A stretch of DNA of 64,000 nt from Betaproteobacteria bacterium (lineage in GTDB: Bacteria > Pseudomonadota > Gammaproteobacteria > Burkholderiales > JACQAP01). Positions 4,006 to 40,146 of the stretch are shown here, one piece after another. Location of the stretch: assembly GCA_031362885.1 (NCBI GenBank), contig JANLTJ010000212.1, positions 975 to 64,974 of the forward strand, given 5' to 3'. The notes beneath the pieces are model-generated. The model did no database searches, was not told where the DNA came from, and worked only from the letters and a program-made list of their open reading frames with translations. Made by a program: the position numbers and the translations under genes. Position 1 is the first letter of the stretch. Each line of letters begins with the position of its first letter.

Positions 4006-4018
4006 GAAAGCACTCCAA

Positions 4019-22521: not shown

Positions 22522-23328
22522 TCAGCCCCCGAGCATCAGATCGTCGCGGTACTGCGCGGCCGGGTACTGAAACGGCACCGGCCCGTCGGGTTCACCATGA
22601 ATGAACTGATGCACCAACGGATCGGTGGAGGCTTGCATCTCCTGCGGAGTACCCTTGGCTACGATTTTTCCGTCGGAGAGGTAGTAGACATAGTCCACTA
22701 TTTTCAGCGACTCCTGCACATCGTGGGTTACCACAATGGACGTCGCCCCGAGCGCATCGTTCAAGCGCCGGATGATATTGCCAATAACTCCAAGCGAAAT
22801 CGGATCGAGTCCGGCGAAAGGCTCGTCGTACATGATGAGCATCGGGTCGAGCGCAATGGCGCGCGCCAGCGCCACGCGTCGCGCCATGCCGCCCGAAAGC
22901 TCCGAGGGCATCAGCCCCTGCGCGCCGCGCAGCCCAACGGCGTGCAGCTTCATCAGCACCATGTCACGGATCATCGGCTCGGTCAGATCGGTATGCTCAC
23001 GCATCTGGAAGGCGACGTTATCGAACACCGACAAATCGGTAAACAGCGCGCCAAACTGGAACAACATGCCCATGCGCCGGCGCATCTGGTAGAGGCCCTC
23101 GCGATCGAGTTTGTGAATGACTTTGCCGGCAACCCTGATCTCCCCGGTGCGCGGTTTGAGCGCGCCACCGATCAGGCGCAGCAGAGTCGTCTTGCCGGAT
23201 CCGCTGATGCCCATCATCGATACCACTTTGCCGCGAGGAATGGCCATATCGATTCCACTCAGAATCGGGCGTCGCTTGTCGTACCAGAAATTCAGACCGC
23301 TGATTTCAACGAGATTGTCGGAACTCAC
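22522..23328 (-). CDS. mlaF: lipid asymmetry ABC ATPase MlaF
   Basis: Walker [10 protein letters not shown], signature [14 protein letters not shown], Walker [13 protein letters not shown]. The track ORF extends to 23436. GTG at 23328 ([14 protein letters not shown]) gives the usual N-terminus. Start uncertain. Confidence 0.9.
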
Positions 23329-23659
23329 CGTGATGTCCGTGGCAGAAGACGGCAGGCATTGTAGCGGAGACCGGTACTCGCCGCAGTTTGCCGCAAGCGG
23401 CGCATGCCTTGCGCCGAGGTCGTGGTCGCCGTGCACCTGCCGCCGGCTCGAATTGGTCTGACCGGTTCGAGCATTGCACTTCGAATTTTGCCTCTGCCTG
23501 GCACGGGTTCAGGATCCGGTACGCGCTTCCACGCATCCGTGCCCGGACCATCGGACCTGGCCCGTGCTGACTTTTTAAGCATGGCTAACCTTATGTGGCG
23601 TCTAACTTTTCTGGCACAATCAGGCTCCTGAACCGGATCCCGCCGCGCTTGCAAGCCAG

Positions 23660-25102
23660 ATGGACGCCAAAAAAACAACCAAACCCGATCTGCTGATCGT
23701 CGATGATGACCCGCTCATCATCGATACCTTGAGTTTTGTACTGGGCAAGGACTACAACGTACGAGCGGCGTCCTCCAGAACGCAAGTGAAGAGCCTGTTG
23801 CGCCAGCTTGATACCGCGCCGGAACTGGCATTGGTTGATCTGGGCCTGCCCCCGTCGCCTCATCGTCCTGATGAGGGATTTCAACTGATCACGGATCTGC
23901 TGGCGCACTCGGCGTCGATGAAGATTCTGGTTCTGTCGGGGCAAAGCGACGAATCCAATGCCCGCTATGCCCGCACTCTGGGCGCGGTGGAGTTCATCGC
24001 CAAGCCGTGCGAACCCGAAGTGCTCAAGTCGATGCTCGCCAAGGCCATGCGCATGGCGGCGGTGCAGGAGGAATCGGCCAAGGTCGATACCGGCATCATC
24101 GGCACTGGTCCTGCCATCAGCAAGCTGCATCAGCAGATCGCGCAATATGCGTCGGCCCCGTTTCCGGTTCTCATTGAAGGCGAATCGGGCAGCGGCAAGG
24201 AGTTGGTGGCCCGATCGTTGCACGAACAAGGCCCGCGGGCGGGAAAACCTTACCTTGCCCTCAACTGCGCCGCCATTTCGCCTACGCTCGTCGAACCCAC
24301 GCTGTTCGGCTACGTGAAGGGTGCGTTCACCGGGGCGACGTCCTCGCGTTCGGGTTACTTCGAGGATGCGCAGGAAGGCACGCTTTTTCTGGATGAAATC
24401 GGCGAATTGCCCCTGGAATTGCAGGCAAAATTGTTGCGCGTGCTGGAGAACGGGGAGTATCAGCGTGTTGGCGAAACACAGAGCCGAACCTCCAATGCGC
24501 GGGTTATTACCGCGACCAATCGCGATTTGCGGCAGGAAGTGCGCTCAGCGCGGTTTCGCCCGGATCTCTACCACCGGCTCTCGGTATTCTCGATTTCGGT
24601 GCCTGCGTTGCGCGAACTCGGCGATGACAAGCTGAAGTTGCTTGAGCACTACTGTGAGATTTACGCGCGCCAAAGTCAGGCCAAGCCGTTCAAGCTCGAT
24701 CACAAATCTCTTGAGTTATGGGCGCAGTATGGCTTTCCCGGAAACGTGCGCGAATTGCGCAACATCGTGATCAGACTGAGCACTAAGTTTCCCGGACAAA
24801 CCATCAACACCGACCAATTGATGGGCGAATTCGACTGGGAAGACCCGATGTCCGCCCCGTCCGATGCCGGCCAGACCAGGGACATCAAGACGTCGATGCA
24901 AACCGCCCGCAAGCACTTGCAAACACAGAAGGGATTCATGCTCGACGAGGCGCTGCGCGATCTTGAACGCAGCTACGTCGAGGCGGCCTTGGACATTACT
25001 CACGGCAACCTCAGCCAGGCGGCGAAACTGCTCGGCATCCATCGCACGACGCTGTACAGCCGCATGCAGAATTATGCGTCCGGCGCGCAAGAAGGCAACT
25101 GA
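23660..25102 (+). CDS. sigma-54-dependent response regulator (receiver + AAA+ EBP + Fis-type HTH), PrsR/AtoC-like
   Basis: Receiver LLIVDDDP...LVDLGLPPSPHRPDEGF...AKP. EBP core GESGSGKELVARSLH, GAFTGA loop (KGAFTGATSSRSG), TLFLDEIGELP. C-terminal HTH GNLSQAAKLLGIHRTTLYSRM. Confidence 0.9.
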   Translation: MDAKKTTKPDLLIVDDDPLIIDTLSFVLGKDYNVRAASSRTQVKSLLRQLDTAPELALVDLGLPPSPHRPDEGFQLITDLLAHSASMKILVLSGQSDESNARYARTLGAVEFIAKPCEPEVLKSMLAKAMRMAAVQEESAKVDTGIIGTGPAISKLHQQIAQYASAPFPVLIEGESGSGKELVARSLHEQGPRAGKPYLALNCAAISPTLVEPTLFGYVKGAFTGATSSRSGYFEDAQEGTLFLDEIGELPLELQAKLLRVLENGEYQRVGETQSRTSNARVITATNRDLRQEVRSARFRPDLYHRLSVFSISVPALRELGDDKLKLLEHYCEIYARQSQAKPFKLDHKSLELWAQYGFPGNVRELRNIVIRLSTKFPGQTINTDQLMGEFDWEDPMSAPSDAGQTRDIKTSMQTARKHLQTQKGFMLDEALRDLERSYVEAALDITHGNLSQAAKLLGIHRTTLYSRMQNYASGAQEGN

Positions 25103-26631
25103 TGTACTACAAGTATTTCGGTCTTGCCCGCGCGCCCTTCAAGATCACGCCCGATACGGACGTGTTCTTCGAGGGCGGCAATCGCGGCGCAATACTGGAA
25201 GCCCTGATTTACGCGATTTCAAACGGCGAAGGCATCATCAAAGTGACGGGCGAGGTCGGCAGCGGCAAAACCATGCTCTGCCGCGTGCTGCAAACTCGCC
25301 TGCCGCCCAATGTGGAGACGGTCTATCTGGCGAATCCAAGCGTGTCGCCGGAGGAAATACTGCATGCCATCGCCTTTGAATTGCGGCTGCCGGTGCCCAA
25401 GGACGCGGGTCGCCTGGAAGTCATGCATGCGCTCAACGAATATCTGGTCGAGCGTCATGGCCAGCAGCGCCAGGTTGTCGTCTTCGTGGAAGAATCCCAG
25501 GGCATGCCGATTTCCACACTGGAAGAAATCCGGCTGCTTTCCAATCTCGAAACCAAACAGCATAAATTGCTGCAGATCGTTCTGTTTGGCCAACCCGAGC
25601 TCGACGACAACCTGCGACAGCAAAACATCCGGCAACTTCGCGAACGCATTACGCATAGTTTCAGCCTGGCGCCCCTGGACGCGGAGGACGTCAAGGCGTA
25701 CCTGACCTTTCGCTTGCGCGCAGCCGGATATCACGGCCCTGATTTGTTTAGCCGCAGAGTAATCGCTTATATGGCCAAAGCCTGCGGCGGCTTGACGCGA
25801 CGCCTGAATCTGGTCGCCGACAAGGCGCTCCTGGCGGCGTTTGCCCAGGGGACTTATAACGTGACCTTGCAGCACGTCAAATCCGCGGTTCGCGACAGCG
25901 AATTCAGCCGGGTGGAACCGCCGCGTCGAAACGCCTCGCCTGTTCGCTACGCTGTTGGGGGACTGGCGATTGGCGGCGCGCTTGGAATCGCGGTCCTTGT
26001 CGCCTATCAGGCGCTTATGGCGGAAGACCCGGCGACTTTGGAAACAGTGCCGCCGCCCTCCGCTCAGCAGCCGCTTGCCGCACCCCAAACAGCGCCAATA
26101 GCAGTCACGCCCGACCTGCCGGAACCCCCCGTGGCGAGAGCATCTCCCGAGCCGCCGAGCGAACCACTGCCTCCGGTTGCGCTCGCGCGCAGGGTCGAGT
26201 CGGCGGTTGTCCATCGCCCGGCGCAAGGCCTGTCTTCGTCCACGGTTGCGACTTCCGCACCCGGGCCGGGTGAGCCTTCGCAGGCCGGTGAGAACGTCGA
26301 TCTGCTGGAACAGCGCATGCAGGCGACGGAAAAGTGGTTGCTCGAACAAAATGACGGCGCCTACAGCTTGCAATTGCTTGGTTCCAACGAACACGATCTT
26401 CTTCGGGAGTATTTGAAGACGATCGCCAAATTTGTTGAAATCGAAAAGGTTTATGTGTACCGTACCAGTGCGAACGGACGCCCTTCCCTGACGGTGCTGT
26501 ACGGGACTTTCGGGACCCGTAATGGGGTGGCACAAGCACTGCAAGGTCTGCCGGAAGCGTTGAAAGTAAACCGTCCTTATTACCGGACTATTCAGGGCAT
26601 CCGCTCTGAGATTGCCCGTCAAAGATCGTAA
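25102..26631 (+). CDS. ExeA/GspA/MshM-like AAA ATPase fused through a TM and Pro-rich linker to a SPOR-like domain
   Basis: N-terminus YFGLARAPFKITPDTDVFF...VTGEVGSGKT (Walker A) and VVFVEESQ. TM at aa 283-305, Pro/Ala linker aa 306-395. C-terminus YSLQLLGS...LTVLYGTFGTRNGVAQAL resembles SPOR. ATG shares one nt with the upstream TGA (TGATG). Confidence 0.8.
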   Translation: MYYKYFGLARAPFKITPDTDVFFEGGNRGAILEALIYAISNGEGIIKVTGEVGSGKTMLCRVLQTRLPPNVETVYLANPSVSPEEILHAIAFELRLPVPKDAGRLEVMHALNEYLVERHGQQRQVVVFVEESQGMPISTLEEIRLLSNLETKQHKLLQIVLFGQPELDDNLRQQNIRQLRERITHSFSLAPLDAEDVKAYLTFRLRAAGYHGPDLFSRRVIAYMAKACGGLTRRLNLVADKALLAAFAQGTYNVTLQHVKSAVRDSEFSRVEPPRRNASPVRYAVGGLAIGGALGIAVLVAYQALMAEDPATLETVPPPSAQQPLAAPQTAPIAVTPDLPEPPVARASPEPPSEPLPPVALARRVESAVVHRPAQGLSSSTVATSAPGPGEPSQAGENVDLLEQRMQATEKWLLEQNDGAYSLQLLGSNEHDLLREYLKTIAKFVEIEKVYVYRTSANGRPSLTVLYGTFGTRNGVAQALQGLPEALKVNRPYYRTIQGIRSEIARQRS

Positions 26632-26716
26632 TGGATAGCAACTGGACGCCCGACAATGCGGCATAACCAAACAAGTTGCGTCCCGGAATGTAGAGAACGT
26701 TTTCACGGGTTCGAAA

Positions 26717-28627
26717 ATGACCAATGAACAGGGAGGAAACGAGCCACGTAGCAGGGCGGCATCACGATCCGTGACGCGGGCTTCGGCGTGGGGTCGTCTA
26801 CTGACGACGGCTCGTGTGGTGTCCGCCGCCTGCCTGCTCGCGCTTGCCGCTGGCGGGTGCGCTGCCGTCAGGCCCAAAGTTCCGCCATCGCAAGGACACC
26901 TCGACTCCGGCCGCGTAGCCGCGAAAGCAACGGAAGAAAAGATCCCGGCGCCGGTTACCAGCAACAACTTCGTCCCTGCGCCCAAGCCCCAGGTCAAAGT
27001 CCCCACTTACAGCGTTGTGGTCAACGAAGTGCCGGTCAAGGAGTTGCTGTTCGCGCTTTCGCGCGACACCGGGCAGAACATTGACGTGCACCCGGACGTA
27101 AGCGGCTTTGTGACCCTAAACGCGATAGACCAGACACTGCCTTCGATACTCGATCGCATTTCAAGGCAAGTGAACATTCGATATACCACCGGCGAAAATT
27201 CCATTTACGTAATGGCAGATAGCCCTTTTCTGAGAAGCTATCGCGTTAATCACGTAAACGTCCAGAGAGATACCGCGAGCTCAATAGGTGTCAGCGGTGA
27301 CATTGGAGGCGGTTCATCCAGTAGCTCCGGTGGGTCACAGACGTCGGGAAGCAATTCCGCAACCATCGTCACCGCAACTTCAAAGAATAATTTCTGGGAG
27401 ATATTGCGCGACAACATGAGAAGCATTTTGACCTCGGCACGGACAGCGGAACTTCCGAAAGCAGAGCGAGAATTAGAGCGGAGCGCGATCGTTGACCAAA
27501 TAAGGCTCGATGAACGGCGCGCGGCGCTTTTAGCGGACGCCAGTCGCAACAACAATCAGCAGCTTGCGACAGGAGTTGCACTTGCCACACTGGGGGGGCC
27601 AGGCCTAACGGCCAACGCAGCCAACATCTCCCGTGCTATCACGTCGGCTGAGATCGGAAATGACGTTATCGTCAATCCCTTGGCGGGTACCGTTACGGTC
27701 ATGGCGCCTGAACGGCTGCACAAGCTTGTTCAGGAGTATCTCGACAATGTGAATAATGCGTCGCAGCGGCAAGTGCTGATCGAAGCCACTATCGTCGAAG
27801 TCCGGCTTTCCAACAATTATCAGGGTGGCGTGGACTGGAGCCGGATAGCTTCCGGGACCGGATTCACTTTCAATCAACAGTTGCTCGGCACCAGCCTCGG
27901 CACCGCCCCAAGGATGATTGTGGGGTATACCAATCTGACTTCGACTGTCGGCAATATCGCTGCGTCGCTACGGTTATTGGAGCAATTCGGCAATACTAGG
28001 GTGCTGTCGAGCCCGAAGTTGATGGCTCTGAATAACCAGACGGCACTGCTTAAAGTCGTGGACAATATCGTTTATTTTGAAGTCAAGTCGGATACCACCC
28101 CAGCGACTCTGGCGAGCGCCGCGATAACCACCTTCACGACAACTGCGAAGACGATTCCGGTAGGGCTGATCATGAGCGTGTTGCCTCAGGTGACCGACAC
28201 CGGAACAGTCAACCTCACGGTACGACCGACGATTTCGAGCGTAACCCGCTTTGTTCCCGACCCCAATCCGTCATTGCAAGTGGATGGCCAAGGCAATCAG
28301 CTCGCCAATCCAGTTCCAAATCTGATTCCACAGATCCAGATTCGGGAAATGGAATCCGTGCTTCAGGCCGGCAGCGGCCAGACCATCATACTGGGCGGGT
28401 TGATGCAAGATGACGTACAGCGCAACCGCGACGCCGTGCCCGGCCTGGGCAAGTTACCCTCTCCGATTGGTGACGCCTTCAGTTTCCGTGACGAAAGAGT
28501 GCGCAAGACCGAGCTGGTAATCTTTCTCAAGCCGACCGTAATCAGCAATCCCTCGCTGGATAGCGACGAGCTCAAGTTTTTCCGCCGTTTCCTGCCCACG
28601 ATCGACCCGAGCGGCAAGACACCATGA
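26717..28627 (+). CDS. secretin (GspD/PilQ superfamily, MshL-like), probable lipoprotein
   Basis: Candidate lipobox LALAAGG-C (Cys48). N-domain KELLFALSRDTGQNIDV. C-terminal secretin core VLSSPKLMALNNQTALLKV...DAVPGLGKLPSPIGDAFSFRDERVRKTELVIFLKPTVI. Confidence 0.9.
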   Translation: MTNEQGGNEPRSRAASRSVTRASAWGRLLTTARVVSAACLLALAAGGCAAVRPKVPPSQGHLDSGRVAAKATEEKIPAPVTSNNFVPAPKPQVKVPTYSVVVNEVPVKELLFALSRDTGQNIDVHPDVSGFVTLNAIDQTLPSILDRISRQVNIRYTTGENSIYVMADSPFLRSYRVNHVNVQRDTASSIGVSGDIGGGSSSSSGGSQTSGSNSATIVTATSKNNFWEILRDNMRSILTSARTAELPKAERELERSAIVDQIRLDERRAALLADASRNNNQQLATGVALATLGGPGLTANAANISRAITSAEIGNDVIVNPLAGTVTVMAPERLHKLVQEYLDNVNNASQRQVLIEATIVEVRLSNNYQGGVDWSRIASGTGFTFNQQLLGTSLGTAPRMIVGYTNLTSTVGNIAASLRLLEQFGNTRVLSSPKLMALNNQTALLKVVDNIVYFEVKSDTTPATLASAAITTFTTTAKTIPVGLIMSVLPQVTDTGTVNLTVRPTISSVTRFVPDPNPSLQVDGQGNQLANPVPNLIPQIQIREMESVLQAGSGQTIILGGLMQDDVQRNRDAVPGLGKLPSPIGDAFSFRDERVRKTELVIFLKPTVISNPSLDSDELKFFRRFLPTIDPSGKTP

Positions 28628-29937
28628 GCTTGTTGCTCGAAGCCCTGCAGAAGGCCTCGAAGAACCGCGACGAAGCAAAGGCTGGGACCACGGGCGATAT
28701 CATGGCGATGGCGGAGGAACTGGCGCTGGAGCCGACAATGTCCGCGCCCGACGCCCTGCCGGATTCGGCAGGCTCGCCGACTGCCGCCCAGGCGGCAACC
28801 TTGTTGCAGGCCCGAAGCGTACCGGGATTCAACGTCCTGGATTACGCACGCGAGCACTACATGATCAGTTTTCTTGGGTTCGCAATTCTTTTTGCCCTTG
28901 GGTACGGAACCTATGTTTACGTGCAGGTGGCCCAGCCGTTTCGCAGTCCCACGCCCGCATTGGCTCCCTTGGTGGCCGCGCCGCAAAGCGCAGCCATAGC
29001 CAGCGCGCCGCCGCCGGACAGCGCAAAAATAACTGGATTACCTGGTGGCATGACGTCGTCGGACGGCAGCGCCGGGGCGGGCGCCATGGCCGCCACCGCC
29101 AATGCTGCGGATGCATCCGGGCAACCGGCCCCGCCTGCGTCCGCTCCGGTCTTCGACGAACCGATGGCCATGCCTGCGGCCAGAAAAAAAACATCCGCCA
29201 AACCGGCCTCGGCCCCGAGGGCGAAGGCCGCGTCTCGCAGCACGTCGAATTCCGCGCCGCTCACCGATGCGGGCGATAGAGTAGAAACAATCGTGATACC
29301 GACATCACGGCCGGAGCCCGGCGGTGTCGAAGTGCGGAAGGACGCGACAAGGCAAACGCAAGTTACTCCGGTACTGATGCAAGCTTATGAAACTCTTCAG
29401 CGCGGAGAAAACGCGAAAGCCAGAGAACTGTACGAACAATTCCTGCAGCGCGAACCGCGCAGTATTGATGCCTTGCTCGGGCTCGGCGCCATCGCGCTGG
29501 GTGAAGGCCGGCTGGACGATGCCAGCGGCTATTACCAGCGGATCCTGGCGCTGGATCCTCGCAATTCCTATGCGCAGGCCGGCTTGATTTCTATTGTTGG
29601 TGGCGCGGATCGTCCGGCCAGTGAATCCCGGCTCAAACAACTCATTGCCCGCGATCCATCGGCGTTCCTGAATTATTCCCTTGGCAATCTGTATGCCGAA
29701 CAGGGGCAGTGGCCTTCCGCGCAGCAAGCCTATTTCCAGGCCTTTCAGATGCAACAGGACAATCCGGACTACGCATTCAATCTGGCTGTCGGACTGGATC
29801 ACCTCGGCCAGGACCAGCTTGCGCTCGACTACTACCGCAAGGCGCTGGATCTGTCTTTCAAGAAAGGCCACGCCAATTTCGATCAAACTCTCGTCATCCA
29901 GCGCGTCGGCCAGCTTTCCGCTCGCGTAGAGCAGTGA
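28624..29937 (+). CDS. bitopic TPR-repeat pilus biogenesis protein (MshN-like, GspB-like N-terminus)
   Basis: N-terminus MSLLLEALQKASK. One TM (ISFLGFAILFALGYGTYVYV), an Ala/Pro/Ser-rich linker, then C-terminal TPRs (AKARELYEQFLQREPRSIDALLGLG...YYQRILALDPRNSYA...YYRKALDL). ATGA overlap with the secretin stop. Confidence 0.7.
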   Translation: MSLLLEALQKASKNRDEAKAGTTGDIMAMAEELALEPTMSAPDALPDSAGSPTAAQAATLLQARSVPGFNVLDYAREHYMISFLGFAILFALGYGTYVYVQVAQPFRSPTPALAPLVAAPQSAAIASAPPPDSAKITGLPGGMTSSDGSAGAGAMAATANAADASGQPAPPASAPVFDEPMAMPAARKKTSAKPASAPRAKAASRSTSNSAPLTDAGDRVETIVIPTSRPEPGGVEVRKDATRQTQVTPVLMQAYETLQRGENAKARELYEQFLQREPRSIDALLGLGAIALGEGRLDDASGYYQRILALDPRNSYAQAGLISIVGGADRPASESRLKQLIARDPSAFLNYSLGNLYAEQGQWPSAQQAYFQAFQMQQDNPDYAFNLAVGLDHLGQDQLALDYYRKALDLSFKKGHANFDQTLVIQRVGQLSARVEQ

Positions 29938-29947
29938 GTTAGCGTCA

Positions 29948-31651
29948 ATGGCCGAGCAGCGCAAGAAGCTTCGTCTGGGGGAGTTACTGGTTCAGCAAGG
30001 CCTGATCACTCTGGATCAGTTGCGCATCGCACTGACTGAGCAGAAAACCCAGATCATGCCCATTGGGCGGCTTCTGGTCCGGCTCGGATTCGTCACCGAA
30101 GCCGTCATCCGCGACATCATGGCGCGCACCATTGGCCAGGAAAGTATCGATCTTTCCCAGGCGCTGGTTGACGCGGAAGCGCTCAAACTCGTCCCTCAGG
30201 AATTCGCCCGGCGCCATCGTCTGCTGCCGATCGCGTATGACGCCGAGAAGAATTTGCTGATTGTCGCCATCACCGAAGTGTTCAATGTTGTCGCGCTGGA
30301 TCAGTTGCGCGCCACGATCGGGCAGAACATCCAGATGAAAACGGTGCTTGCGGGCCAGGCACAGTTGGACGAATTCATCGACCAGTTCTACGGCCACGAG
30401 CTGTCGGTGGACGGCATCCTGCGCGAAATCGAGACCGGAGAAATCGATTACCAGAGCATGCAGACGCTCGGCGACGAATACACCCAACCGATCGTCAGGC
30501 TGGTTGGTGCCCTGATGGTCGATGCGGTCAAGCGTGGCGCGTCAGATATTCACTTCGAACCGGAATTCGCTTTTCTGCGCATACGCTACCGCATTGATGG
30601 CGTGCTGGAGCAAATACGCAGCCTGCACAAGAACTATTGGCCAGGCATCGCGGTGCGAATCAAGGTCATCAGCGGCATGAACATCGCCGAAACGCGTGCG
30701 CCGCAGGACGGACGTCTTTCGCTTAACCTCAATGGCCGTCCAGTGGATTTTCGCGTGTCCTCACAACCCACGATCTGGGGCGAGAACATCGTTTTGCGCG
30801 TACTCGACCGCGAAAAGTCGATCATAAGCCTTGACCAGTTGAAGCTGACCAAGCCGGTGATGTCTCGACTCAATCTCATGCTTGCCAGACCGGAAGGCAT
30901 ATTGATTATTACCGGCCCGACCGGAAGCGGGAAAACAACCACGCTTTATTCGATGCTGGCCAAGCTCAATGTCGAGTCCGTGAACATCATGACGCTGGAA
31001 GATCCGGTTGAATATCCGGTGGCGATGATGAGGCAAACCTCCGTATCCGAAATGGCAAAGATAGACTTCGCGAACGGCATACGCTCAATCATGCGCCAGG
31101 ATCCCGATATCATTCTGGTCGGAGAGGTGCGCGATCGGGAGACGGCGGAAATGGCGTTTCGCGCGGCGATGACCGGCCATCAGGTGTTTACCACCCTGCA
31201 CACCAACTCGGCGCTCGGCGCGTTTCCACGCCTGCTCGATATCGGCATCGCGCCTGACATCATGGCCGGTAACATCATCGGCATCATTGCGCAGCGGCTG
31301 GTGCGGATTTTGTGTATTCATTGCAAGGAAGGTCACGATCCCTCCGTCGAAGAACGCCGCCTGCTCGGACGCGAGGCAAGCGAGCAGTTCCGGATATTTC
31401 GGCCCGTGGGCTGCGGTCATTGCAGCAACCGGGGATATCGCGGCCGCATGGCGATTATGGAAATACTGCATATGGATGCCGATCTGGACGAACTTGTCGC
31501 AAGGCGCGCGACTCCGAGAGAATTGCGCGAGACCGCGCTGTCCAAGAACTTCCGCACACTTGCCGAAGAAGGCGTTGCCCGCGTTGCCGAAGGCGTGACC
31601 AGTTTGGCCGAAGTGGCCCGCTCGATCGACCTGACGGGTCGCGCCGGCTAG
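29948..31651 (+). CDS. GspE/PilB-family assembly ATPase with N-terminal MshEN domain (MshE-like)
   Basis: Walker A GPTGSGKTT, Walker B DPDIILVGEVRD, His box TGHQVFTTLHTN, zinc motif CIHC...CGHC. N-terminus RLGELLVQQGLITLDQLRIALTEQ matches the MshEN motif. Confidence 0.95.
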   Translation: MAEQRKKLRLGELLVQQGLITLDQLRIALTEQKTQIMPIGRLLVRLGFVTEAVIRDIMARTIGQESIDLSQALVDAEALKLVPQEFARRHRLLPIAYDAEKNLLIVAITEVFNVVALDQLRATIGQNIQMKTVLAGQAQLDEFIDQFYGHELSVDGILREIETGEIDYQSMQTLGDEYTQPIVRLVGALMVDAVKRGASDIHFEPEFAFLRIRYRIDGVLEQIRSLHKNYWPGIAVRIKVISGMNIAETRAPQDGRLSLNLNGRPVDFRVSSQPTIWGENIVLRVLDREKSIISLDQLKLTKPVMSRLNLMLARPEGILIITGPTGSGKTTTLYSMLAKLNVESVNIMTLEDPVEYPVAMMRQTSVSEMAKIDFANGIRSIMRQDPDIILVGEVRDRETAEMAFRAAMTGHQVFTTLHTNSALGAFPRLLDIGIAPDIMAGNIIGIIAQRLVRILCIHCKEGHDPSVEERRLLGREASEQFRIFRPVGCGHCSNRGYRGRMAIMEILHMDADLDELVARRATPRELRETALSKNFRTLAEEGVARVAEGVTSLAEVARSIDLTGRAG

Positions 31652-31731
31652 CACCTCGACGCGAGCGTCGCGCGACATTCACGGCAAAATCGGTTTGAAT
31701 CCAGACAGACCCTTTCACAGACGAGCAGCCA

Positions 31732-32937
31732 ATGGCCGCATTTCAGTACAAGGCAATTGACCGGACGGGTCGTCAGGCACGCGGCAAGCTCGATGCCGCG
31801 AACGAGGTTGATCTCGAGTTGCGCCTGAAAAAAATGGGGTTGGACCTGATCGTTTCGCGCGCCGTGCGCAGCCAGGGGCCATCGCTCGCCGGCGGCAGCG
31901 TGACCAGGCAGGATTTGATTACATTTTGCTTCGACCTCGAACAGGTTTCACGCGCCGGAATCCCATTGATCGAAGGCCTGCGCGACTTGCGCGACGGCAT
32001 GGAGAATCCGCGTTTCCGCGAACTGCTGACATCCGTCCTTGAAGACATCGAAGGCGGCAAGACGCTTTCCCAGGCGCTGGCCGGATTTCCGCGTGTTTTC
32101 GACACCGTGTTTATCAGCCTGATTCGTGCTGGCGAACTTTCCGGGACCTTGACCGAGGTGTTCGAGAATCTCGGTGCCACGCTCAAATGGCACGACGAAC
32201 TGGTATCCCAGACCAGACGCCTGCTGGTCTATCCGGCGCTGGTATTTGTCGTCGTCACCGCGGTCATGGTTTTTCTGCTGCTGTACCTCGTCCCTCAGGT
32301 TACCCAGTTGTTGAAAACCATGGGCCTCGAGCTGCCAATCCAGACCCGCGTCCTGATCTGGATGTCGAACTTCACCGCCACATGGTGGCCGGTGCTCTTG
32401 ATCGCTCCGACCGTCGCCGCGCTTACCATCACTTTCCTGGTTCGCACCCGGCCGAAATCGCGTTACTTGTTTGACTATGTCATTCTGCACCTGCCAGTCA
32501 CCGGGGTCATTCTGCAGAAAATTATTCTTGCCCGCTTCGCGAACTTTTTCGCCCTGATGTACCGCTCCGGCATCACTATTCTGGACGCCGTCAAGACCAG
32601 CGAGGACATTGTCGGCAACCGCGTCATCGCCGATGGCCTCCAGCGGGCAGGCCAGCAGATCAATGCCGGCGAAAGCCTGTCCGAGGCGTTCCGCAACCTG
32701 GGCATGTTTCCGCCGCTGGTCATTCGCATGCTCAGGGTGGGAGAAACCACCGGTGCGCTGGATGCGGCACTCATGAACGTCACTTATTTCTACAATCGCG
32801 ACGTCAAGGATTCGGTCGACAAGGCCTTGAAATTGCTCGAACCGACACTGACGCTGCTACTCGGCGGCATGCTGGCGCTGATTCTGTTCTCGGTGCTGAC
32901 ACCGGTGTACGATGTCATCGGCAAATTAAACTTATAG
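31732..32937 (+). CDS. GspF/PilC-family inner-membrane platform protein (MshG-like)
   Basis: 401 aa. Duplicated GspF domains (FCFDLEQVSRAGIPLIEGL... / FFALMYRSGITILDAV...), three TM regions, and the C-terminal TPVYDVIGKL pattern typical of the family. Confidence 0.9.
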   Translation: MAAFQYKAIDRTGRQARGKLDAANEVDLELRLKKMGLDLIVSRAVRSQGPSLAGGSVTRQDLITFCFDLEQVSRAGIPLIEGLRDLRDGMENPRFRELLTSVLEDIEGGKTLSQALAGFPRVFDTVFISLIRAGELSGTLTEVFENLGATLKWHDELVSQTRRLLVYPALVFVVVTAVMVFLLLYLVPQVTQLLKTMGLELPIQTRVLIWMSNFTATWWPVLLIAPTVAALTITFLVRTRPKSRYLFDYVILHLPVTGVILQKIILARFANFFALMYRSGITILDAVKTSEDIVGNRVIADGLQRAGQQINAGESLSEAFRNLGMFPPLVIRMLRVGETTGALDAALMNVTYFYNRDVKDSVDKALKLLEPTLTLLLGGMLALILFSVLTPVYDVIGKLNL

Positions 32938-32944
32938 GGCATTG

Positions 32945-34477
32945 ATGGCGAAGCTTCTTATCTGCGTGTCGCATGACCAGGCGAGCGTTGCCGTGTGGAG
33001 GCGCAACCGGCTGGCCTCCTGCACCCGCTTCGACAACAACGAAGCCGGCTGGAATGCGTTTGGCAATTTTCTGCGCGGCGCAAAAGGCCTGCCGGTCCAC
33101 ATCATGGTGGACACCGTCGAGGAAGATTTTCGCTTCGAGACCCTGCCGCACGTACGCGGCAGCGAGCGCTCGGAAATGGTCGCGCGCAAGCTCAAGCAGC
33201 TCTATCGCTCCTCTTCCTACCACTCCTATGCCTTCCAGGAGCGCGGCACCGGAACACGAAAAGACGACCGCTATTTGTTTGCCGCGCTGACTGACGCGGG
33301 GCTGTTGACTCCCTGGCTGCAGGCCATCGAAACCGCCCAGCTCCCGGTATCCGGAATCTATCCGCTGGCACTCGTCAGCGCATCGCTTATCGATCGTCTG
33401 AGGATCAAGCAACCGAATCTGTTGATCGTCAGCAAGAATGTCGCAGGATTGAGGCAGACTTTTTTCAAGGATCTGAAATTTCGCATCAGCCGCCTCACGC
33501 CCGTGCTTTCCGCCGCCGGCATGGCCGATCAGCATTACGCGGATGAAATCGCCAATACGCGCATGTATCTGGATGCGCTGACAGTCACTCACGTCGATGA
33601 CACGCTGGAACTCGTTATTCTGGATCAGGACGGCTCGCTATCCGGACTGCCCGCGACGATCAAGCGCGGCCGGCCGAACATTCACTGTCAATATCTCGAT
33701 ATCAACGCCATTCATACGCGATTTGGTATTCCGATCTCGGATCTCAGAGTCTCGACCGACACGCTGCATCTTTTTCTGCTTGGCGAGAAAGCCCCGGCGC
33801 TCAATCTCGCCCCGGCCCAGATCACCCGCACTTATCAGCGCTTTGCCGCCGGCAGGTGGGTGTATGCCGCTTCCGGTGCAATGCTGGCCGGTGCGGTGCT
33901 CTGGAGCGGCGCCAATGTCTACCGGGCCATGGGCATCGATGACGATGCCTTCGCTGCACAGCGGCAGGCGCAGGACTTGCAGAGCAAGTACCAGCAAGTC
34001 GTGGCGCGCTTTCCCGAGGCGCCGACGAGCGCGGAAAATCTGCGCCACACCGTCCAGTTCGCCGAACAGATCCGCAGCCGGCTGCGCACGCCGGACGCAA
34101 TGCTTGCCGTTGTCAGTCAGGCGTTGACCGCTTCCCCGGACATCGAATTGCAGGCACTGGAGTGGCACTATGGCGATTCGACGCCGCAAAAAGCAACCGC
34201 TGGATCGGCACCATCTCCCGGCTTCGATGCGTTGATCCAAACCGGCATTGTGCGTGCAGAGGTTGCCCGTTTCGCAGGCGACTATCGCGCGGCCATGAGT
34301 TCCATCCAGAATTTCCTGCAACGGATTGCCCAGGACAAGGCGGTCGCCGAGGTCAAGGTATTGAAATTGCCGCTGGATATCGCCTCCAGTTCCGGTTTGA
34401 ACGGCAGCACCCAGGAAATTGCCGGGAAGGATACGGCGCAGTTCGAGATCGCCATTTCCTTCAGGAGCGCGATTTAG
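32945..34477 (+). CDS. PilM-like cytoplasmic domain fused to a PilN-like TM/periplasmic domain (MshI-like), tentative
   Basis: About 315 cytoplasmic aa, one TM (WVYAASGAMLAGAVLWSGANVY), then a coiled-coil (AAQRQAQDLQSKYQQVV) and a small C-terminal domain. The architecture and its position after the platform gene support the call; no strong motif does. Confidence 0.5.
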   Translation: MAKLLICVSHDQASVAVWRRNRLASCTRFDNNEAGWNAFGNFLRGAKGLPVHIMVDTVEEDFRFETLPHVRGSERSEMVARKLKQLYRSSSYHSYAFQERGTGTRKDDRYLFAALTDAGLLTPWLQAIETAQLPVSGIYPLALVSASLIDRLRIKQPNLLIVSKNVAGLRQTFFKDLKFRISRLTPVLSAAGMADQHYADEIANTRMYLDALTVTHVDDTLELVILDQDGSLSGLPATIKRGRPNIHCQYLDINAIHTRFGIPISDLRVSTDTLHLFLLGEKAPALNLAPAQITRTYQRFAAGRWVYAASGAMLAGAVLWSGANVYRAMGIDDDAFAAQRQAQDLQSKYQQVVARFPEAPTSAENLRHTVQFAEQIRSRLRTPDAMLAVVSQALTASPDIELQALEWHYGDSTPQKATAGSAPSPGFDALIQTGIVRAEVARFAGDYRAAMSSIQNFLQRIAQDKAVAEVKVLKLPLDIASSSGLNGSTQEIAGKDTAQFEIAISFRSAI

Positions 34478-35089
34478 ATGAATCTGTCCCGGAAAGATTT
34501 CCAGTCAATCAAGACGCCGCTGATGGCACTGGCGCTCGCGGTCGCCGCTTCGCTGACAATGCTGGCAATTACAGACCGCAAGCTTGCGAGCTCCGAGATG
34601 AATTACCGGAATCAGTTGACCGCGCTCACGGAAGCGCGCACCCGCTACCAGCGCTCCGGAGAAGAGCACGAATCCATTCTGCGTTACCTGGAAAGTTATC
34701 GTGCCTTGGAAAAAATCGGCTTCGTCGGCACCGAACAGCGACTGAACTGGGTGGAAAGTTTGCGCATGGCCAACAAAAACGCAGGCTTGTTCGGAGTGGA
34801 CTACCAGTTGACCGCCCAGGAGCCTTTCCCGTTCGCCGTCAGTGACAATCCGATCGCGAATCAAGTCAAGCATTCGCGCATGACCATCACCTTCGGCGTG
34901 CTGCACGAAGGCGAACTCGCGCGTTTGTTTCTTGCCCTGTCGGCGCAGCAGCCCGGGCTGTTTTCGCTGAATGGTTGCTCGATTGATCGCGCGGGCAGGC
35001 AAGGCGACCCGCTGCCCAGGCAGGCCAATCTCACGGCCCGGTGCGAACTCTCCTGGCTGACACTGGAACCCGGTGGCGGCAAATCATGA
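34478..35089 (+). CDS. PilO/MshJ-like bitopic pilus alignment protein, tentative
   Basis: 203 aa. N-terminal TM (LMALALAVAASLTMLAI), a coiled-coil, then an alpha/beta C-domain. ATG directly abuts the upstream TAG; AGGAG lies 11 nt upstream. Confidence 0.45.
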   Translation: MNLSRKDFQSIKTPLMALALAVAASLTMLAITDRKLASSEMNYRNQLTALTEARTRYQRSGEEHESILRYLESYRALEKIGFVGTEQRLNWVESLRMANKNAGLFGVDYQLTAQEPFPFAVSDNPIANQVKHSRMTITFGVLHEGELARLFLALSAQQPGLFSLNGCSIDRAGRQGDPLPRQANLTARCELSWLTLEPGGGKS

Positions 35090-35607
35090 GGAAAACACTC
35101 CAAACCGCCGCTTTGATCGCCAGCGTCGTGCTGCCATTGCAGAGTCTTGCCGGCGAGCCATTCGGCCGGCTGTTCTTCACCCCCGCACAACGCAGCGCAC
35201 TCGATGCCGGCAAACAGGTCCGCACGCAGAAGGCTTCTCCTGCCCCGGAAGCGCGCAGTCCCCGGGAAATTACGCTAAGCGGCGTGGTCACGCGCAGTGA
35301 CGGAGATTCCACCGTTTGGATAAACGGCATAGCCCTCGACAAGCGCAGTTCCGGGGTGAGCGCCCGCACCACGGGCTCCGATCCGGCGGCCGCAGAGGTA
35401 AGGCTGGCGGGTGCTCGCAACAGTGTGCGCATGCGCGTTGGGCAACACCTGGAATCTTCCAGCGGAAGGATTGCTGAACGCTATTCGCAGACCGCGCAGG
35501 CAAGGAAAAAAGTCGATCCGAATCTCACCGCCAAGGAAGCGAATGCCGAAGGCAAGCCCCCACCCGCAACTGCGGACGCCGTGCGCGCTTCAGCTCCGGA
35601 AAACTAA
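35086..35607 (+). CDS. secreted PilP/MshK-like small beta-domain protein, tentative
   Basis: Signal peptide MRKTLQTAALIASVVLPLQSLAG. Core ITLSGVVTRSDGDSTVWINGIAL resembles the PilP/MshK/GspC-HR pattern. ATGA overlap with the upstream stop. The track ORF starts earlier, at 35041. Confidence 0.4.
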   Translation: MRKTLQTAALIASVVLPLQSLAGEPFGRLFFTPAQRSALDAGKQVRTQKASPAPEARSPREITLSGVVTRSDGDSTVWINGIALDKRSSGVSARTTGSDPAAAEVRLAGARNSVRMRVGQHLESSSGRIAERYSQTAQARKKVDPNLTAKEANAEGKPPPATADAVRASAPEN

Positions 35608-35628
35608 GGCTTTGCCGCACATCGCCTC

Positions 35629-38021: not shown

Positions 38022-38057
38022 TTAGTTTTTCGCGCCCGCTCAGTTTTTCGCGCCGAA
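38022..38057. repeat. imperfect 18-nt tandem duplication spanning the histidine kinase stop codon
   Basis: TTAGTTTTTCGCGCCCGC (38022-38039) followed by TCAGTTTTTCGCGCCGAA (38040-38057), 14/18 identical. On the minus strand these read ...FGAKN-TGA then AGAKN-TAA. Confidence 0.8.
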
Positions 38058-39758: not shown

Positions 39759-40130
39759 GGGTGCGGTTCCAAGACAGCAGTCTACGCTATGCGAAACGGT
39801 GCGCGAGTCCATCCAGACCCTGACCGCAGACCTTGCCTTGGCCGATAGCCGGGACTTGCCGAGGGCAAGGTCGACCAGCGCAATTGGCAATAAATTGTCG
39901 AAAAATCGTCGACATTGTCGAGAATATGACCGAATAAACCAGCCGTATCTTGGATGCATGGCGACTGGCGTTCAAGTTTGTTGTAGGTCTCGATCGGCAT
40001 TAATTTCAGACTAAAGGACCCTAACGTGGGGTAGTTCTTGCCCTACAGGTGGGAAATCCCAGCGATTCAAGCCTTCAGGGGATCAATGCCGCATTTCAAA
40101 ATTCTGCGGTCGACATCTTCGCCAGCAAAC

Positions 40131-40146
40131 TGGCACGCTTCTAGCG
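40131..40146 (+). promoter_or_regulatory. candidate sigma-54 (-24/-12) promoter for the pilin gene
   Basis: TGGCACG-CTTC-TAGCG versus consensus TGGCACG-N4-TTGCW. The GG (40132-33) to GC (40144-45) spacing is exactly canonical. It lies 62 nt upstream of ATG 40208. Confidence 0.65.

What the first reader, a model, noticed from the sequence alone, without database searches (positions are those of the whole stretch)
23660..25104. Sigma-54 enhancer-binding response regulator is the first cistron of the assembly operon and has a PrsR-like receiver signature
Seen: the regulator's TGA (25100-25102) shares one nt with the ATG of the ExeA-like ATPase (TGATG). The activator is therefore co-transcribed and probably translationally coupled with the structural genes, rather than paired with its kinase, which lies 13 kb away on the other strand. 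The receiver contains LVDLGLPPSPHRPDEGF, followed by an (I/L)SG and AxxFxxKP layout. From memory this matches the DLGLPPD..G..EGF signature of the PEP-CTERM-box regulator PrsR (TIGR02915, AtoC-like) better than PilR or NtrC. Inference: a PrsR-type EBP may have been recruited to a pilus-like system. ExeA-like ATPases are also a recurrent component of PEP-CTERM/exosortase loci (TIGR03015), which hints at shared ancestry or cross-regulation with floc/EPS systems. No exosortase or PEP-CTERM gene is present in this window.
Basis: partly seen in the sequence, partly recalled or inferred. Interest (0 to 1): 0.6.

Follow-up and report, generated by a model that had tools for sequence, protein, structure and literature searches.

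The report
Pilus-operon sigma-54 regulator, PrsR-like receiver
This gene encodes the dedicated sigma-54 activator of a conserved MSHA-like pilus gene cluster; only its phosphate-receiving domain resembles PrsR, the PEP-CTERM (exopolysaccharide protein-sorting) system regulator, so it is a new subfamily of a familiar regulator type, not a PrsR.

Summary
ORF 23660..25102 is a 480-aa REC–AAA+–HTH sigma-54 activator. Its TGA shares one base with the ATG of the ExeA/MshM-like ATPase gene.

The receiver carries DLGLPPSPHRPDEGF. Scored alone, it matches the PrsR model far better than any other (83 bits; next best 44, NtrC 28). True PrsRs carry a loop of the same length, DLGLPPDxxxxSEG[LF].

The protein is not PrsR:
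- Full length it scores 349 bits (cutoff 502.6; true PrsRs 580–774).
- Its AAA+/HTH part is generic.
- An AU test on the AAA+ domain disfavours a PrsR sister position (p = 0.013).
- Thiobacillus thioparus has both a true PrsR and this protein.

It belongs to a sharply bounded family (signature DLGLPPxPHxPxEGF). In 85 of 86 related loci checked it is followed directly by MshM-like, then secretin, TPR and MshE genes where the contig continues; the last locus ends too soon.

The likely target is a sigma-54 promoter before the pilin gene, conserved in 6 of 6 genomes. The likely kinase is the distal polytopic kinase. Its HDVKN H-box matches the type found next to every extended-loop receiver sampled (10/10); ordinary receivers sat next to HExxNP kinases (14/14).

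Earlier reports of this scan described the same cluster type in other genomes. No RNA evidence was available.

The parts
23612..23620 (+). Conserved TGGCACAAT element about 40 nt upstream of the regulator's ATG. Best read as an extended -10 (TGn + cAcAAT) of a sigma-70-type operon promoter.
   Evidence: It forms invariant columns in a 6-way alignment. TG[GT]CA[CGA]AAT lies 26-130 nt upstream of the aligned start of the regulator gene in 68 of 80 loci. No GC stands at sigma-54 spacing after it in any of 33 loci. The promoter reading is an inference.
23660..25102 (+). Gene for the 480-aa sigma-54 enhancer-binding response regulator, first cistron of the pilus assembly operon.
   Evidence: ORF and translation. 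Pfam REC, Sigma54_activat, AAA_lid_14 and HTH_8. The family HMM separates members (647 bits or more) from all other activators (399 bits or less) in 401 genomes.
23693..24037 (+). Receiver domain (residues 12-126). It keeps the acidic pocket D16/D17, the phospho-acceptor D60, S93 and K115.
   Evidence: Pfam. D16, D17, D60 and K115 are invariant and S93 nearly so across 21 family members. Receiver alone scores 83.1 bits on PrsR against 44 or less elsewhere.
23837..23881 (+). Extended beta3-alpha3 loop DLGLPPSPHRPDEGF (residues 60-74), five residues longer than in ordinary receivers. Family signature DLGLPPxPHxPxEGF.
   Evidence: Sequence. Same loop length in 30 true PrsRs. Family signature. AlphaFold models residues 60-70 as a coil between beta3 (56-59) and alpha3 (71-83), with mean pLDDT 89-91 for the ten-residue blocks 51-70.
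24095..24595 (+). AAA+ sigma-54 interaction domain (residues 146-312), with Walker A GESGSGKE, GAFTGA at 24320-24337 and Walker B DEIG.
   Evidence: Pfam PF00158, 218.9 bits. Motifs read from the translation. Without the receiver the best models are NorR 328 and NtrC 325; PrsR is sixth at 265.
24953..25075 (+). Fis-type HTH_8 DNA-binding domain (residues 432-472).
   Evidence: Pfam PF02954, 52 bits.
25100..25104 (+). TGATG stop/start overlap between the regulator gene and the MshM/ExeA-like ATPase gene.
   Evidence: Sequence. The same cTGATGt occurs in 5 related loci and direct abutment in 3; the gap is 16 nt or less in 48 of 76.
25102..38003 (+). Assembly genes in one direction. In order: MshM/ExeA-like ATPase, MshL-like secretin, TPR protein, MshE-like ATPase with a c-di-GMP-binding MshEN domain, GspF/MshG-like platform protein, three unannotated proteins, a 497-aa protein and a 306-aa prepilin-like protein.
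   Evidence: Pfam and NCBIfam. ORFs. Synteny in 80 loci. No positionally conserved sigma-54 promoter inside the operon.
38040..39758 (-). Polytopic histidine kinase, the probable cognate kinase. Its H-box THDVKNLL lies at 38625-38639. The true start is probably the ATG at 39758, not the one at 39959.
   Evidence: HATPase_c. Orthologues align only from residue 62-84 of the long ORF. The H-box is invariant in 6 orthologues. It is the only HD[LIVM]KN kinase in the genome. It is present in all 9 genomes with the regulator that were checked and in 0 of 2 without it.
39897..39930 (+). Tandem palindrome-like sites GTCGAAAAATCGTC and GTCGAGAATATGAC in the kinase-pilin intergenic region. Candidate binding sites for the regulator.
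   Evidence: A clear counterpart lies at about -240 to -200 from the pilin sigma-54 promoter in four of the six genomes examined (window, L131, L132, L133); L130 has only a weaker version and T. thioparus none. A strict pattern matches once in the 4.2-Mb genome. The same motif sits right after TGGCACAAT in more than 35 Thiobacillus-clade loci. Function is inferred.
40131..40146 (+). Sigma-54 promoter TGGCACGCTTCTAGCG, 62 nt upstream of the pilin ATG. Probable target of the regulator.
   Evidence: One mismatch to TGGCAC-N5-TTGC. Orthologous pilin genes in 5 other genomes have TGGCACG-N4-(T/C)(T/C)GC starting 54-70 nt upstream of the start codon.
40208..40906 (+). Major pilin-like gene (prepilin leader, then GFTLIEIAIVLVIIGLLLGG).
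   Evidence: ORF translation. Orthologues in 5 genomes.

Best explanation
The gene encodes the dedicated sigma-54 activator of a conserved MSHA-like type IV pilus cluster. It is made together with the assembly machinery, from a sigma-70-type promoter at the head of the operon. When phosphorylated on D60 it assembles its AAA+ ring and opens the sigma-54 promoter in front of the separately transcribed pilin gene. This works like PilS-PilR acting on pilA. The phosphodonor is most likely the polytopic kinase at the far end of the locus.

The protein belongs to its own family and is not PrsR, PilR or NtrC. Its receiver is of the PrsR type, with a beta3-alpha3 loop five residues longer than usual. 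Receivers of this type sit next to kinases whose H-box reads HDxKN. Its AAA+ and DNA-binding parts are not specifically PrsR-like.

Shown here: domain make-up, family boundary, synteny, the conserved pilin promoter, and the match between loop type and H-box type. Inferred: co-transcription, the kinase partner, the target promoter and the binding site.
For: Architecture and intact catalytic and phospho-acceptor residues.

First-cistron position:
- 77 of 80 related genome loci (65-97% identity, including Thiobacillus thioparus DSM 505 and a T. denitrificans MAG) show MshM-like right after the regulator, continuing as far as the contig reaches through MshL, TPR, MshE, MshG, a 511-aa and a 203-aa protein.
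- Three further genomes at 52-55% identity do the same.
- So do three divergent metagenome members.
- The junction is tight: 16 nt or less in 48 of 76 loci, with no terminator.

Family boundary: 4 of 401 genomes score 647 bits or more and the rest 399 or less.

PrsR-type receiver:
- HMM score on the receiver alone.
- Same-length loop in true PrsRs.
- In a receiver-only search of 1.84 billion representatives, true PrsRs (606 and 621 bits on TIGR02915) appear right after the family's own members.
- The receiver tree splits long-loop from ordinary receivers with 100/100 support and a branch length of 3.0.

Not PrsR.

Target: a sigma-54 promoter precedes the orthologous pilin gene in 6 of 6 genomes. 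None is found before the regulator gene or inside the operon.

Kinase:
- Found in all 9 genomes with the regulator that were checked and in 0 of 2 without it.
- It is the only HD[LIVM]KN H-box kinase in the genome.
- Long-loop receivers lie next to HDLKN kinases in 10 of 10 cases. Activators with an ordinary loop or none lie next to HE[IV][KRN][NT]P kinases in 14 of 14.
Against: - There is no transcript evidence.
- The kinase is not detectably PrsK-like beyond the short H-box motif. PrsK HMMs rank it 16th to 20th among the genome's kinases, and a DHp-only HMM does not find it.
- The candidate binding site is absent from the pilin upstream region of T. thioparus. In that clade it lies at the operon promoter instead. 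The site assignment and the direction of regulation there are therefore open.
- In one genome (G673) the kinase is 168 kb from the cluster.
- The AU test is only moderately significant, and the tested grouping was fixed after a first look at the tree.
- Genomes in the loop/H-box tally are related, so 10/10 and 14/14 stand for only about three and a handful of independent families.
Confidence: 0.72

Rival explanations
1. It is a true, if divergent, PrsR. On this view it controls PEP-CTERM and exopolysaccharide genes, or cross-regulates them together with the pilus. In this genome the target would be the XrtB-linked PEP-CTERM gene.
For: The receiver is PrsR-like. The genome has XrtB, EpsI-B and two PEP-CTERM proteins but no PrsR or PrsK. 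The PEP-CTERM gene on C65 has a sigma-54-like TGGCACTTTTTGAGCA about 95 nt upstream, with a TTTACA nearby. TTTACA is the 3' end of the PrsR box described in PMC1569441.
Against: It scores 349 bits against a 502.6 cutoff, and true PrsRs score 580-774. PrsR ranks sixth for the AAA+/HTH part. The AU test disfavours a sister position to PrsR on AAA+. The family tracks the pilus cluster, not PEP-CTERM: T. thioparus has both proteins and four other carriers have no PrsR. The strict palindrome occurs only at the pilin region. The TTTACA-to-promoter spacing on C65 is about 20 nt, below the published minimum of 32.
Confidence: 0.07
2. It is the PilR orthologue of this organism, and the locus is simply its type IVa pilus regulon.
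For: It has the same functional layout as PilS-PilR: a polytopic kinase, a sigma-54 activator and a sigma-54 pilin promoter.
Against: The genome has a separate activator on C243 with an ordinary DMRLPDGEGL loop, next to a kinase gene; the orthologous pair in G302 has an HEIRNPL H-box. That activator forms its own 100/100 clade, apart from this family, in both trees. Here the kinase and regulator genes are not adjacent, and the cluster is MSH-like (MshL-like secretin, MshEN ATPase, MshM-like ATPase). No curated PilR model was available, so the identity of C243 as PilR is itself an inference.
Confidence: 0.05
3. The regulator mainly controls its own assembly operon, by auto-activation or auto-repression, and the pilin promoter is served by another activator.
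For: In the Thiobacillus clade the palindrome G[TC]CGAAAA[TC]CCGAC lies directly after the conserved TGGCACAAT of the operon promoter. That is an operator-like position, comparable to NtrC sites over glnAp1.
Against: No sigma-54 promoter lies before or inside the operon in 33 and 80 loci respectively. Activation by an enhancer-binding protein is therefore unlikely there. In the window's own clade the palindromes lie in the kinase-pilin intergenic region, not at the operon promoter. The pilin sigma-54 promoter is conserved in 6 of 6 genomes and needs some activator, and this is the only activator gene in the locus.
Confidence: 0.1
4. The distal kinase is not the partner. The regulator would then be an orphan, phosphorylated by another kinase or working without phosphorylation.
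For: The two genes are 13 kb apart on opposite strands, and in G673 they are 168 kb apart. No biochemical data exist.
Against: All phospho-acceptor residues are invariant. The kinase co-occurs with the regulator in every carrier genome checked. It is the genome's only HDxKN kinase, the H-box type found next to every long-loop receiver sampled.
Confidence: 0.06

Closest known systems
PrsR, the PEP-CTERM-box response regulator (TIGR02915; Haft et al. 2006, PMC1569441)
   Same: It has the same REC-AAA+-HTH_8 architecture. Its receiver has the same five-residue-longer beta3-alpha3 loop beginning DLGLPP and ending EG[FL]. It is the nearest receiver relative outside the family. Both are linked to polytopic kinases with an HD[LV]KN H-box.
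   Different: The full-length score is far below the cutoff. The AAA+/HTH part is not PrsR-like. The loop reads xPHxPxEGF instead of DxxxxSEG. The gene is not in tandem with its kinase, and the kinase is not PrsK. The gene context is a pilus cluster, not XrtA and exopolysaccharide genes. The candidate DNA site is a GTCGAAAAnnCGAC palindrome, not the TTTACA-ending motif. It coexists with a true PrsR in T. thioparus.
PilR of the PilS-PilR system (Pseudomonas aeruginosa, Myxococcus, Geobacter); comparison from established knowledge
   Same: It is a sigma-54 activator and response regulator that, with a polytopic membrane kinase, probably drives a sigma-54 promoter in front of the major pilin gene.
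   Different: The receiver class and clade differ. The gene heads the assembly operon instead of following its kinase gene. It serves an MSH-like machine, not a type IVa one. The genome holds a separate PilR-like gene.
NtrC / NR(I) (TIGR01818)
   Same: It is the best full-length NCBIfam score (358 bits). It shares the domain order and the GAFTGA, Walker A and Walker B motifs.
   Different: The score is below the 558.6 cutoff. The receiver scores only 28 bits on NtrC. The genome's real NtrC is on C234, with a receiver score of 168 bits.
MSHA (MSH-class) type IV pilus of Vibrio and Aeromonas, as the machine being regulated
   Same: The cluster has an MshL-like secretin (235.7 bits on TIGR02519), an MshE-like ATPase with a c-di-GMP-binding MshEN domain, an MshM/ExeA-like ATPase, a TPR (MshN-like) protein and an MshG-like platform protein.
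   Different: The gene order differs. The secretin is just under its 250.2-bit cutoff. To my knowledge the Vibrio msh operons are not headed by an enhancer-binding protein and their pilin gene is not known to be sigma-54 dependent; I did not check this here.

Membership tests
PrsR (TIGR02915 equivalog) | Full-length score at or above the curated cutoff of 502.6 bits | tested here: not met
   349.4 bits, or 342.2 bits in the genome search. True members score 580-774 bits.
PrsR (TIGR02915 equivalog) | Receiver with the extended DLGLPP...EG[LF] loop | tested here: met
   DLGLPPSPHRPDEGF has the same length as the loop in 30 true PrsRs. Receiver alone scores 83.1 bits on TIGR02915.
PrsR (TIGR02915 equivalog) | Tandem or nearby PrsK kinase (TIGR02916); 12 of 13 pairs are tandem in PMC1569441 | tested here: not met
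   No PrsK scores over the cutoff in the genome. The locus kinase scores 37.7 bits, ranks 16th, matches the catalytic part only, and lies 13 kb away. PrsK-derived HMMs rank it about 20th.
PrsR (TIGR02915 equivalog) | Co-occurrence with the XrtA/EpsH system and PEP-CTERM genes | tested here: not met
   The genome's exosortase is XrtB (330.9 bits, over its 275 cutoff; XrtA model 145.8, under 208). Four of five other carrier genomes have no true PrsR.
PrsR (TIGR02915 equivalog) | AAA+ domain groups with the PrsR clade | tested here: not met
   The two form separate clades (100/100 and 99/99). Forcing them together costs 14.2 lnL, p-AU 0.013.
NtrC-family (group I) bacterial enhancer-binding response regulators | REC + sigma-54 AAA+ domain with GAFTGA, Walker A and Walker B + Fis-type HTH | tested here: met
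   Pfam PF00072, PF00158, PF25601 and PF02954. GAFTGA is at residues 221-226, with GESGSGKE and DEIG. Phospho-acceptor residues are invariant.
NtrC / NR(I) (TIGR01818 equivalog) | Score at or above 558.6 bits and an NtrC-type receiver | tested here: not met
   358.1 bits full length. The receiver scores 28.3 bits. The genome's NtrC is elsewhere.
PilR (orthology) | Groups with PilR proteins and is encoded next to PilS | tested here: not met
   It is separate from the PilR-like clade (own_C243 and orthologues) in both trees and is not next to its kinase gene. Caveat: no curated PilR model was available. C243 is called PilR-like from its loop, the neighbouring kinase gene and the HEIRNPL H-box of the orthologous kinase in G302.
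PilR (works like) | A sigma-54 promoter in front of the major pilin gene of the same locus | tested here: met
   TGGCACGCTTCTAGCG lies at 40131. Equivalents are found in 5 of 5 other genomes. Actual dependence on this regulator was not tested.
Pilus-linked DLGLPPxPHxPxEGF activator family (defined here) | Family HMM score far above other activators, the PH loop, and position immediately upstream of an MshM/ExeA-like gene | tested here: met
   759.5 bits; other members 647 or more; non-members 399 or less. Loop. Gene context: 77 of 80 genome loci show MshM-like right after the regulator (two end too soon; one has only a partial match about 1 kb on); all six further loci do.

The most novel reading that the evidence does not exclude
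Receivers with the five-residue-longer DL[GA]LPP-x6-E-x-G loop and kinases with an HDxKN H-box may form a distinct, unnamed two-component pairing class. On this reading the long loop is the specificity element that insulates these pairs from NtrB- and PilS-type (HExxNP) kinases. The receiver module would have been combined with at least three different AAA+/DNA-binding output modules: PrsR, this pilus regulator, and a DLALPPEPDNPExG group with a degenerate GAFTGA. That would make this protein an evolutionary mosaic, not a diverged PrsR.
Probability: 0.35. Interest if true: 0.55.

Novelty: new variant of a known kind. Interest (0 to 1): 0.4.

Why it matters
It gives a name-worthy boundary and a testable job to a regulator family that databases label only 'sigma-54 dependent transcriptional regulator'. 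The family is common in soil, groundwater and sludge Betaproteobacteria, including culturable Thiobacillus.

It shows that a PrsR-like receiver is not enough to call a protein PrsR. This matters for automatic annotation of floc and exopolysaccharide regulators.

The strict match between loop type and H-box type offers a simple, experimentally tractable case of kinase-regulator specificity. It also allows partners to be assigned when their genes are 13 kb or more apart.

It does not reveal a new kind of machine or mechanism.

Tried and rejected
- Sigma-54 promoter before the regulator gene: two TGGCAC words lie upstream (23499, 23612). Neither has GC at the -12 spacing, and no related locus does. 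The element was re-read as an extended -10.
- Sigma-54 promoter inside the operon, for example 26528 before the secretin gene: not conserved in position in 80 loci.
- Kinase as a PrsK relative: TIGR02916, three HMMs built from 17 PrsK C-terminal regions, and hhalign all gave only generic catalytic-domain similarity. Only the H-box motif is shared.
- Metagenome scan with the divergent member P0198: one unrelated 33% hit, so the scan was wasted. Gene context was obtained through the look-up of encoding contigs instead.
- Literature: searches for MshM/MshL with sigma-54, and for Thiobacillus with MSHA, found no description of this regulator.
- Solved structures: none holds a PrsR-type receiver. 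The best hits are FixJ and KdpE at 37 bits. KdpE has the short DLGLPDGDG, so 'DLGLP' alone is not diagnostic.
- The strict palindrome was not found near the XrtB-linked PEP-CTERM gene.
- Fold search on the model was not run.

Full report
**Observation**

ORF 23660..25102 (+) encodes a 480-aa protein. Pfam finds Response_reg (12-126), Sigma54_activat (146-312), AAA_lid_14 and HTH_8 (432-472). GAFTGA (residues 221-226), Walker A (GESGSGKE) and Walker B (DEIG) are intact.

The stop TGA (25100-25102) shares its A with the ATG (25102-25104) of the next gene. That gene encodes an AAA_22 ExeA/MshM-like ATPase. The gene upstream (22522..23436) is on the other strand, so the regulator gene is the first plus-strand gene of the block.

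Downstream follow:
- an MshL-like secretin;
- a TPR protein;
- an MshE-like ATPase with a c-di-GMP-binding MshEN domain;
- a GspF/MshG-like platform protein;
- several unannotated proteins;
- a prepilin-like protein.

Next comes a polytopic histidine kinase on the minus strand (38040..39959), and then a pilin-like gene (40208..40906). rpoN itself lies at 44576..46030. The receiver reads VDLGLPPSPHRPDEGF.

**Is it PrsR?**

Full length, NtrC (TIGR01818) scores 358.1 bits and PrsR (TIGR02915) 349.4. Both are far below their cutoffs of 558.6 and 502.6.

In 300 genomes of the same class, true PrsRs score 580-749 bits. A clear gap separates them from other activators, which score 466 or less. This genome has no PrsR over the cutoff, and two other activators in it outscore this one on the PrsR model. 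As a whole protein it is therefore not PrsR.

Split by domain, the picture changes:
- The receiver alone (residues 1-139) scores 83.1 bits on PrsR. The next best are FixJ at 44.4, NtrC at 28.3 and AtoC at 25.1.
- The rest of the protein (residues 132-480) is best matched by NorR (328) and NtrC (325). PrsR is only sixth (265), and that alignment stops before the C-terminal region.

Thirty true PrsRs carry D[LM]GLPPDxxxx[ST][EV]G[LFI], the same length from Asp to Gly as here.

The three other receiver-bearing activators of this genome are NtrC, a GlrR-like protein and a PilR-like protein. They have short ordinary loops such as DIRMPGESGL and DMRLPDGEGL, and PrsR is not among their top 25 models.

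**Nearest relatives and family boundary**

I searched 1.84 billion representative proteins with the receiver alone. The search returned first proteins with the signature DLGLPPxPHxPxEGF, and then true PrsRs at about 35-40% receiver identity. Sampled proteins of the first kind all scored below the PrsR cutoff, at 260-360 bits. The two sampled PrsRs scored 606 and 621 bits.

An HMM of the first group separates members sharply. In 401 genomes of the phylum, four score 647 bits or more and all others 399 or less. Databases call these proteins only 'sigma-54 dependent transcriptional regulator' or 'NtrC family response regulator'.

**Trees**

On the receiver, all long-loop receivers (this family plus PrsR) are split from ordinary activator receivers with 100/100 support and a branch length of 3.0. 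PrsRs form one side of a 100/100 branch. A true PrsR that itself carries a PH loop (P0245) lies nearest to this family.

On the AAA+ domain, the family (100/100) and PrsR (99/99) are separate clades that join an unresolved star with NtrC-, GlrR- and PilR-like clades. Forcing family plus PrsR into one clade costs 14.2 log-likelihood units (p-AU 0.013).

The shared insertion of identical length and position argues for a common origin of the receivers. The AAA+ result suggests, without proving, that the output module has a different history. Two caveats apply: the test is moderately significant, and the grouping was fixed after a first look at the tree.

**Paralogy, not replacement**

Thiobacillus thioparus DSM 505 has a true PrsR (773.6 bits) and a true TIGR03015 ATPase (436.4 bits). 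It also has the pilus-linked regulator (359.8 bits) and MshM-like ATPase (203.9 bits), which sit side by side elsewhere in the genome. Four other genomes with the pilus cluster have no true PrsR.

The window's genome is 99.98% complete. It has XrtB with EpsI-B and two PEP-CTERM proteins, but no XrtA, PrsK or PrsR. TIGR03015 appears to be the only ExeA-family model among the NCBIfam hits. A best hit to it therefore says nothing about a PEP-CTERM link.

**Gene context**

- Seventy-seven of the 80 related genome loci (65-97% identity) show MshM-like right after the regulator. Most are uncultured Burkholderiales, Thiobacillus and Hydrogenophilales MAGs, plus the T. thioparus DSM 505 isolate genome. 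As far as each contig reaches, the order continues with MshL, TPR, MshE, MshG, a 511-aa and a 203-aa protein. Of the other three loci, two end within or just after the regulator gene, and L016 shows only a partial MshM match about 1 kb downstream.
- Three further genomes at 52-55% identity keep the same order.
- So do three divergent metagenome members at roughly 43-50% identity.
- The regulator-MshM gap was measurable in 76 loci. It is -1 or 0 nt in 8, 16 nt or less in 48, and more than 170 nt in 9. Several of the long gaps hold an inserted repeat.
- No terminator-like site lies between the two genes here.

Co-transcription is thus well supported by comparison. Translational coupling is plausible in this lineage but is not a conserved feature.

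**Promoters and target**

No GG-N10-GC sigma-54 promoter lies upstream of the regulator gene in 33 loci. None is positionally conserved inside the operon in 80 loci.

Instead, TG[GT]CA[CGA]AAT (window 23612-23620) is conserved 26-130 nt upstream of the aligned start of the regulator gene in 68 of 80 loci. I read it as an extended -10 element of a sigma-70 promoter. This is an inference.

The pilin gene is different. It is preceded by TGGCACGCTTCTAGCG (40131-40146), 62 nt before its ATG. The orthologous pilin genes of five other genomes, T. thioparus among them, have TGGCACG-N4-(T/C)(T/C)GC starting 54-70 nt upstream of the start codon. The only activator encoded in the locus is the obvious candidate to drive this promoter, as PilR drives pilA.

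**Candidate binding site**

About 200-240 nt upstream of the pilin promoter lie tandem palindrome-like sites: GTCGAAAAATCGTC at 39897 and GTCGAGAATATGAC at 39917.
- Clear counterparts occur in three of the five other genomes examined (L131, L132, L133). L130 has only a weaker version and T. thioparus has none.
- IHF-like WATCAANNNNTTR sites lie between them and the promoter in three of those.
- A strict pattern matches once in the 4.2-Mb genome.
- T. thioparus lacks the sites upstream of its pilin gene. Instead, more than 35 Thiobacillus-clade loci carry G[TC]CGAAAA[TC]CCGAC directly after TGGCACAAT at the operon promoter.

The motif is clearly tied to the cluster. Whether it is this protein's site, and whether it mediates activation, autorepression or both, is open. 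It differs from the published PrsR box, a 17-nt motif ending in TTTACA that lies about 63 nt upstream of the sigma-54 site (PMC1569441).

**The kinase**

Orthologues align only from residue 62-84 of the long ORF, so the true start is probably the ATG at 39758.

The kinase is present in all nine carrier genomes checked. It lies at the far end of the cluster on the opposite strand in eight of them and 168 kb away in one. It is absent from two non-carrier genomes, one of which has a true PrsR.

It is not PrsK. TIGR02916 and HMMs built from 17 PrsK sequences see only generic catalytic-domain similarity.

Its H-box, THDVKN[LI]L, is invariant in six orthologues. It is the only HD[LIVM]KN H-box among this genome's kinases. 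PrsKs read HDLKN.

Across the loci fetched, the kinase next to every long-loop receiver has HDLKN, in 10 of 10 cases. These comprise PrsR and a third group, DLALPPEPDNPExG. The kinase next to every activator with an ordinary loop or none has HE[IV][KRN][NT]P, in 14 of 14 cases.

This match has two consequences. It supports the distal kinase as the cognate partner. It also suggests that the 'PrsR signature' marks a kinase-pairing class, not a PEP-CTERM function. The counted genomes are related, so the number of independent families is small.

**Structure**

AlphaFold gives mean pLDDT 86. It models a standard (beta-alpha)5 receiver in which residues 60-70 form a coil between beta3 and alpha3; the ten-residue blocks 51-70 have mean pLDDT 89-91. 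No solved structure has such a receiver. The best sequence hits are FixJ and KdpE at 37 bits. KdpE shows that a short DLGLPDGDG is ordinary and that the extra length is the distinctive part.

**Verdict**

This is the dedicated sigma-54 activator of a conserved MSHA-like pilus cluster. It belongs to a distinct family whose receiver, and only the receiver, is of the PrsR type.

It most likely acts with the distal HDVKN kinase on the pilin sigma-54 promoter. It is itself made with the assembly machinery from a sigma-70-type promoter.

Earlier follow-up reports of this scan on other genomes reached the same general view of the cluster. This report adds five things: the domain-resolved PrsR test, the family boundary, the coexistence with true PrsR, the loop/H-box match and the promoter elements.

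It is a new variant of a known kind and of moderate interest.

Noticed in passing
L009 2835-2850 (own genome, contig C65; PEP-CTERM gene at L009 2942-3610, XrtB at 1453-2391 minus strand, EpsI-B at 773-1453 minus strand): The genome has an XrtB/EpsI-B exosortase pair. A divergent PEP-CTERM gene next to it is preceded by a sigma-54-like TGGCACTTTTTGAGCA and a nearby TTTACA. The genome nevertheless has no PrsR or PrsK, so the activator serving this promoter is unknown.
   Followed up: partly
L159 1426-2844 (minus strand, activator) and 2841-4166 (minus strand, kinase); also L160, L163, L164, L167, L168, L182: A third group of long-loop receivers, DLALPPEPDNPExG, occurs in small genomes of another family of the phylum. 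In L159, the one read in full, GAFTGA is degenerate (GAYAAA), so these proteins may not contact sigma-54. Each is encoded directly after a kinase with an SHDLKNRL H-box.
   Followed up: partly
L043, L053, L065, L067, L076, between the regulator gene and the MshM-like gene: In several Thiobacillus loci the otherwise tight junction is widened to 266-420 nt. The insert begins GGCGTGTTAACACCAATTTCACGCC, which looks like a hairpin-forming repeat element.
   Followed up: no
window 39759-39959: The longest kinase ORF starts at 39959, but orthologues align only from residue 62-84. The real start is probably 39758. That places the palindromes at 39897-39930 in intergenic DNA.
   Followed up: partly
L069 9912-9925 and more than 35 other Thiobacillus-clade loci: The palindrome G[TC]CGAAAA[TC]CCGAC sits directly after the conserved TGGCACAAT of the operon promoter in the Thiobacillus clade. 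In the window's clade the same motif type lies in the kinase-pilin intergenic region. The cis-element seems to have moved between clades.
   Followed up: partly
G673:C1:2213763-2215163 (regulator) and G673:C1:2382921-2384606 (kinase): In one complete genome of the same order, the regulator gene heads the pilus cluster as usual, but the orthologous kinase gene lies 168 kb away on the same strand.
   Followed up: no
own genome, C284:50896-51681: This is a second ExeA-like ATPase (317-aa frame). It scores 235.8 bits on TIGR03015, higher than the pilus-linked one. Its gene context was not examined.
   Followed up: no
window 44576-46030: rpoN, the sigma-54 gene itself, lies only 3.7 kb downstream of the pilin gene, in the kdsD-lptCAB-rpoN-hpf-ptsN block.
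   Followed up: no
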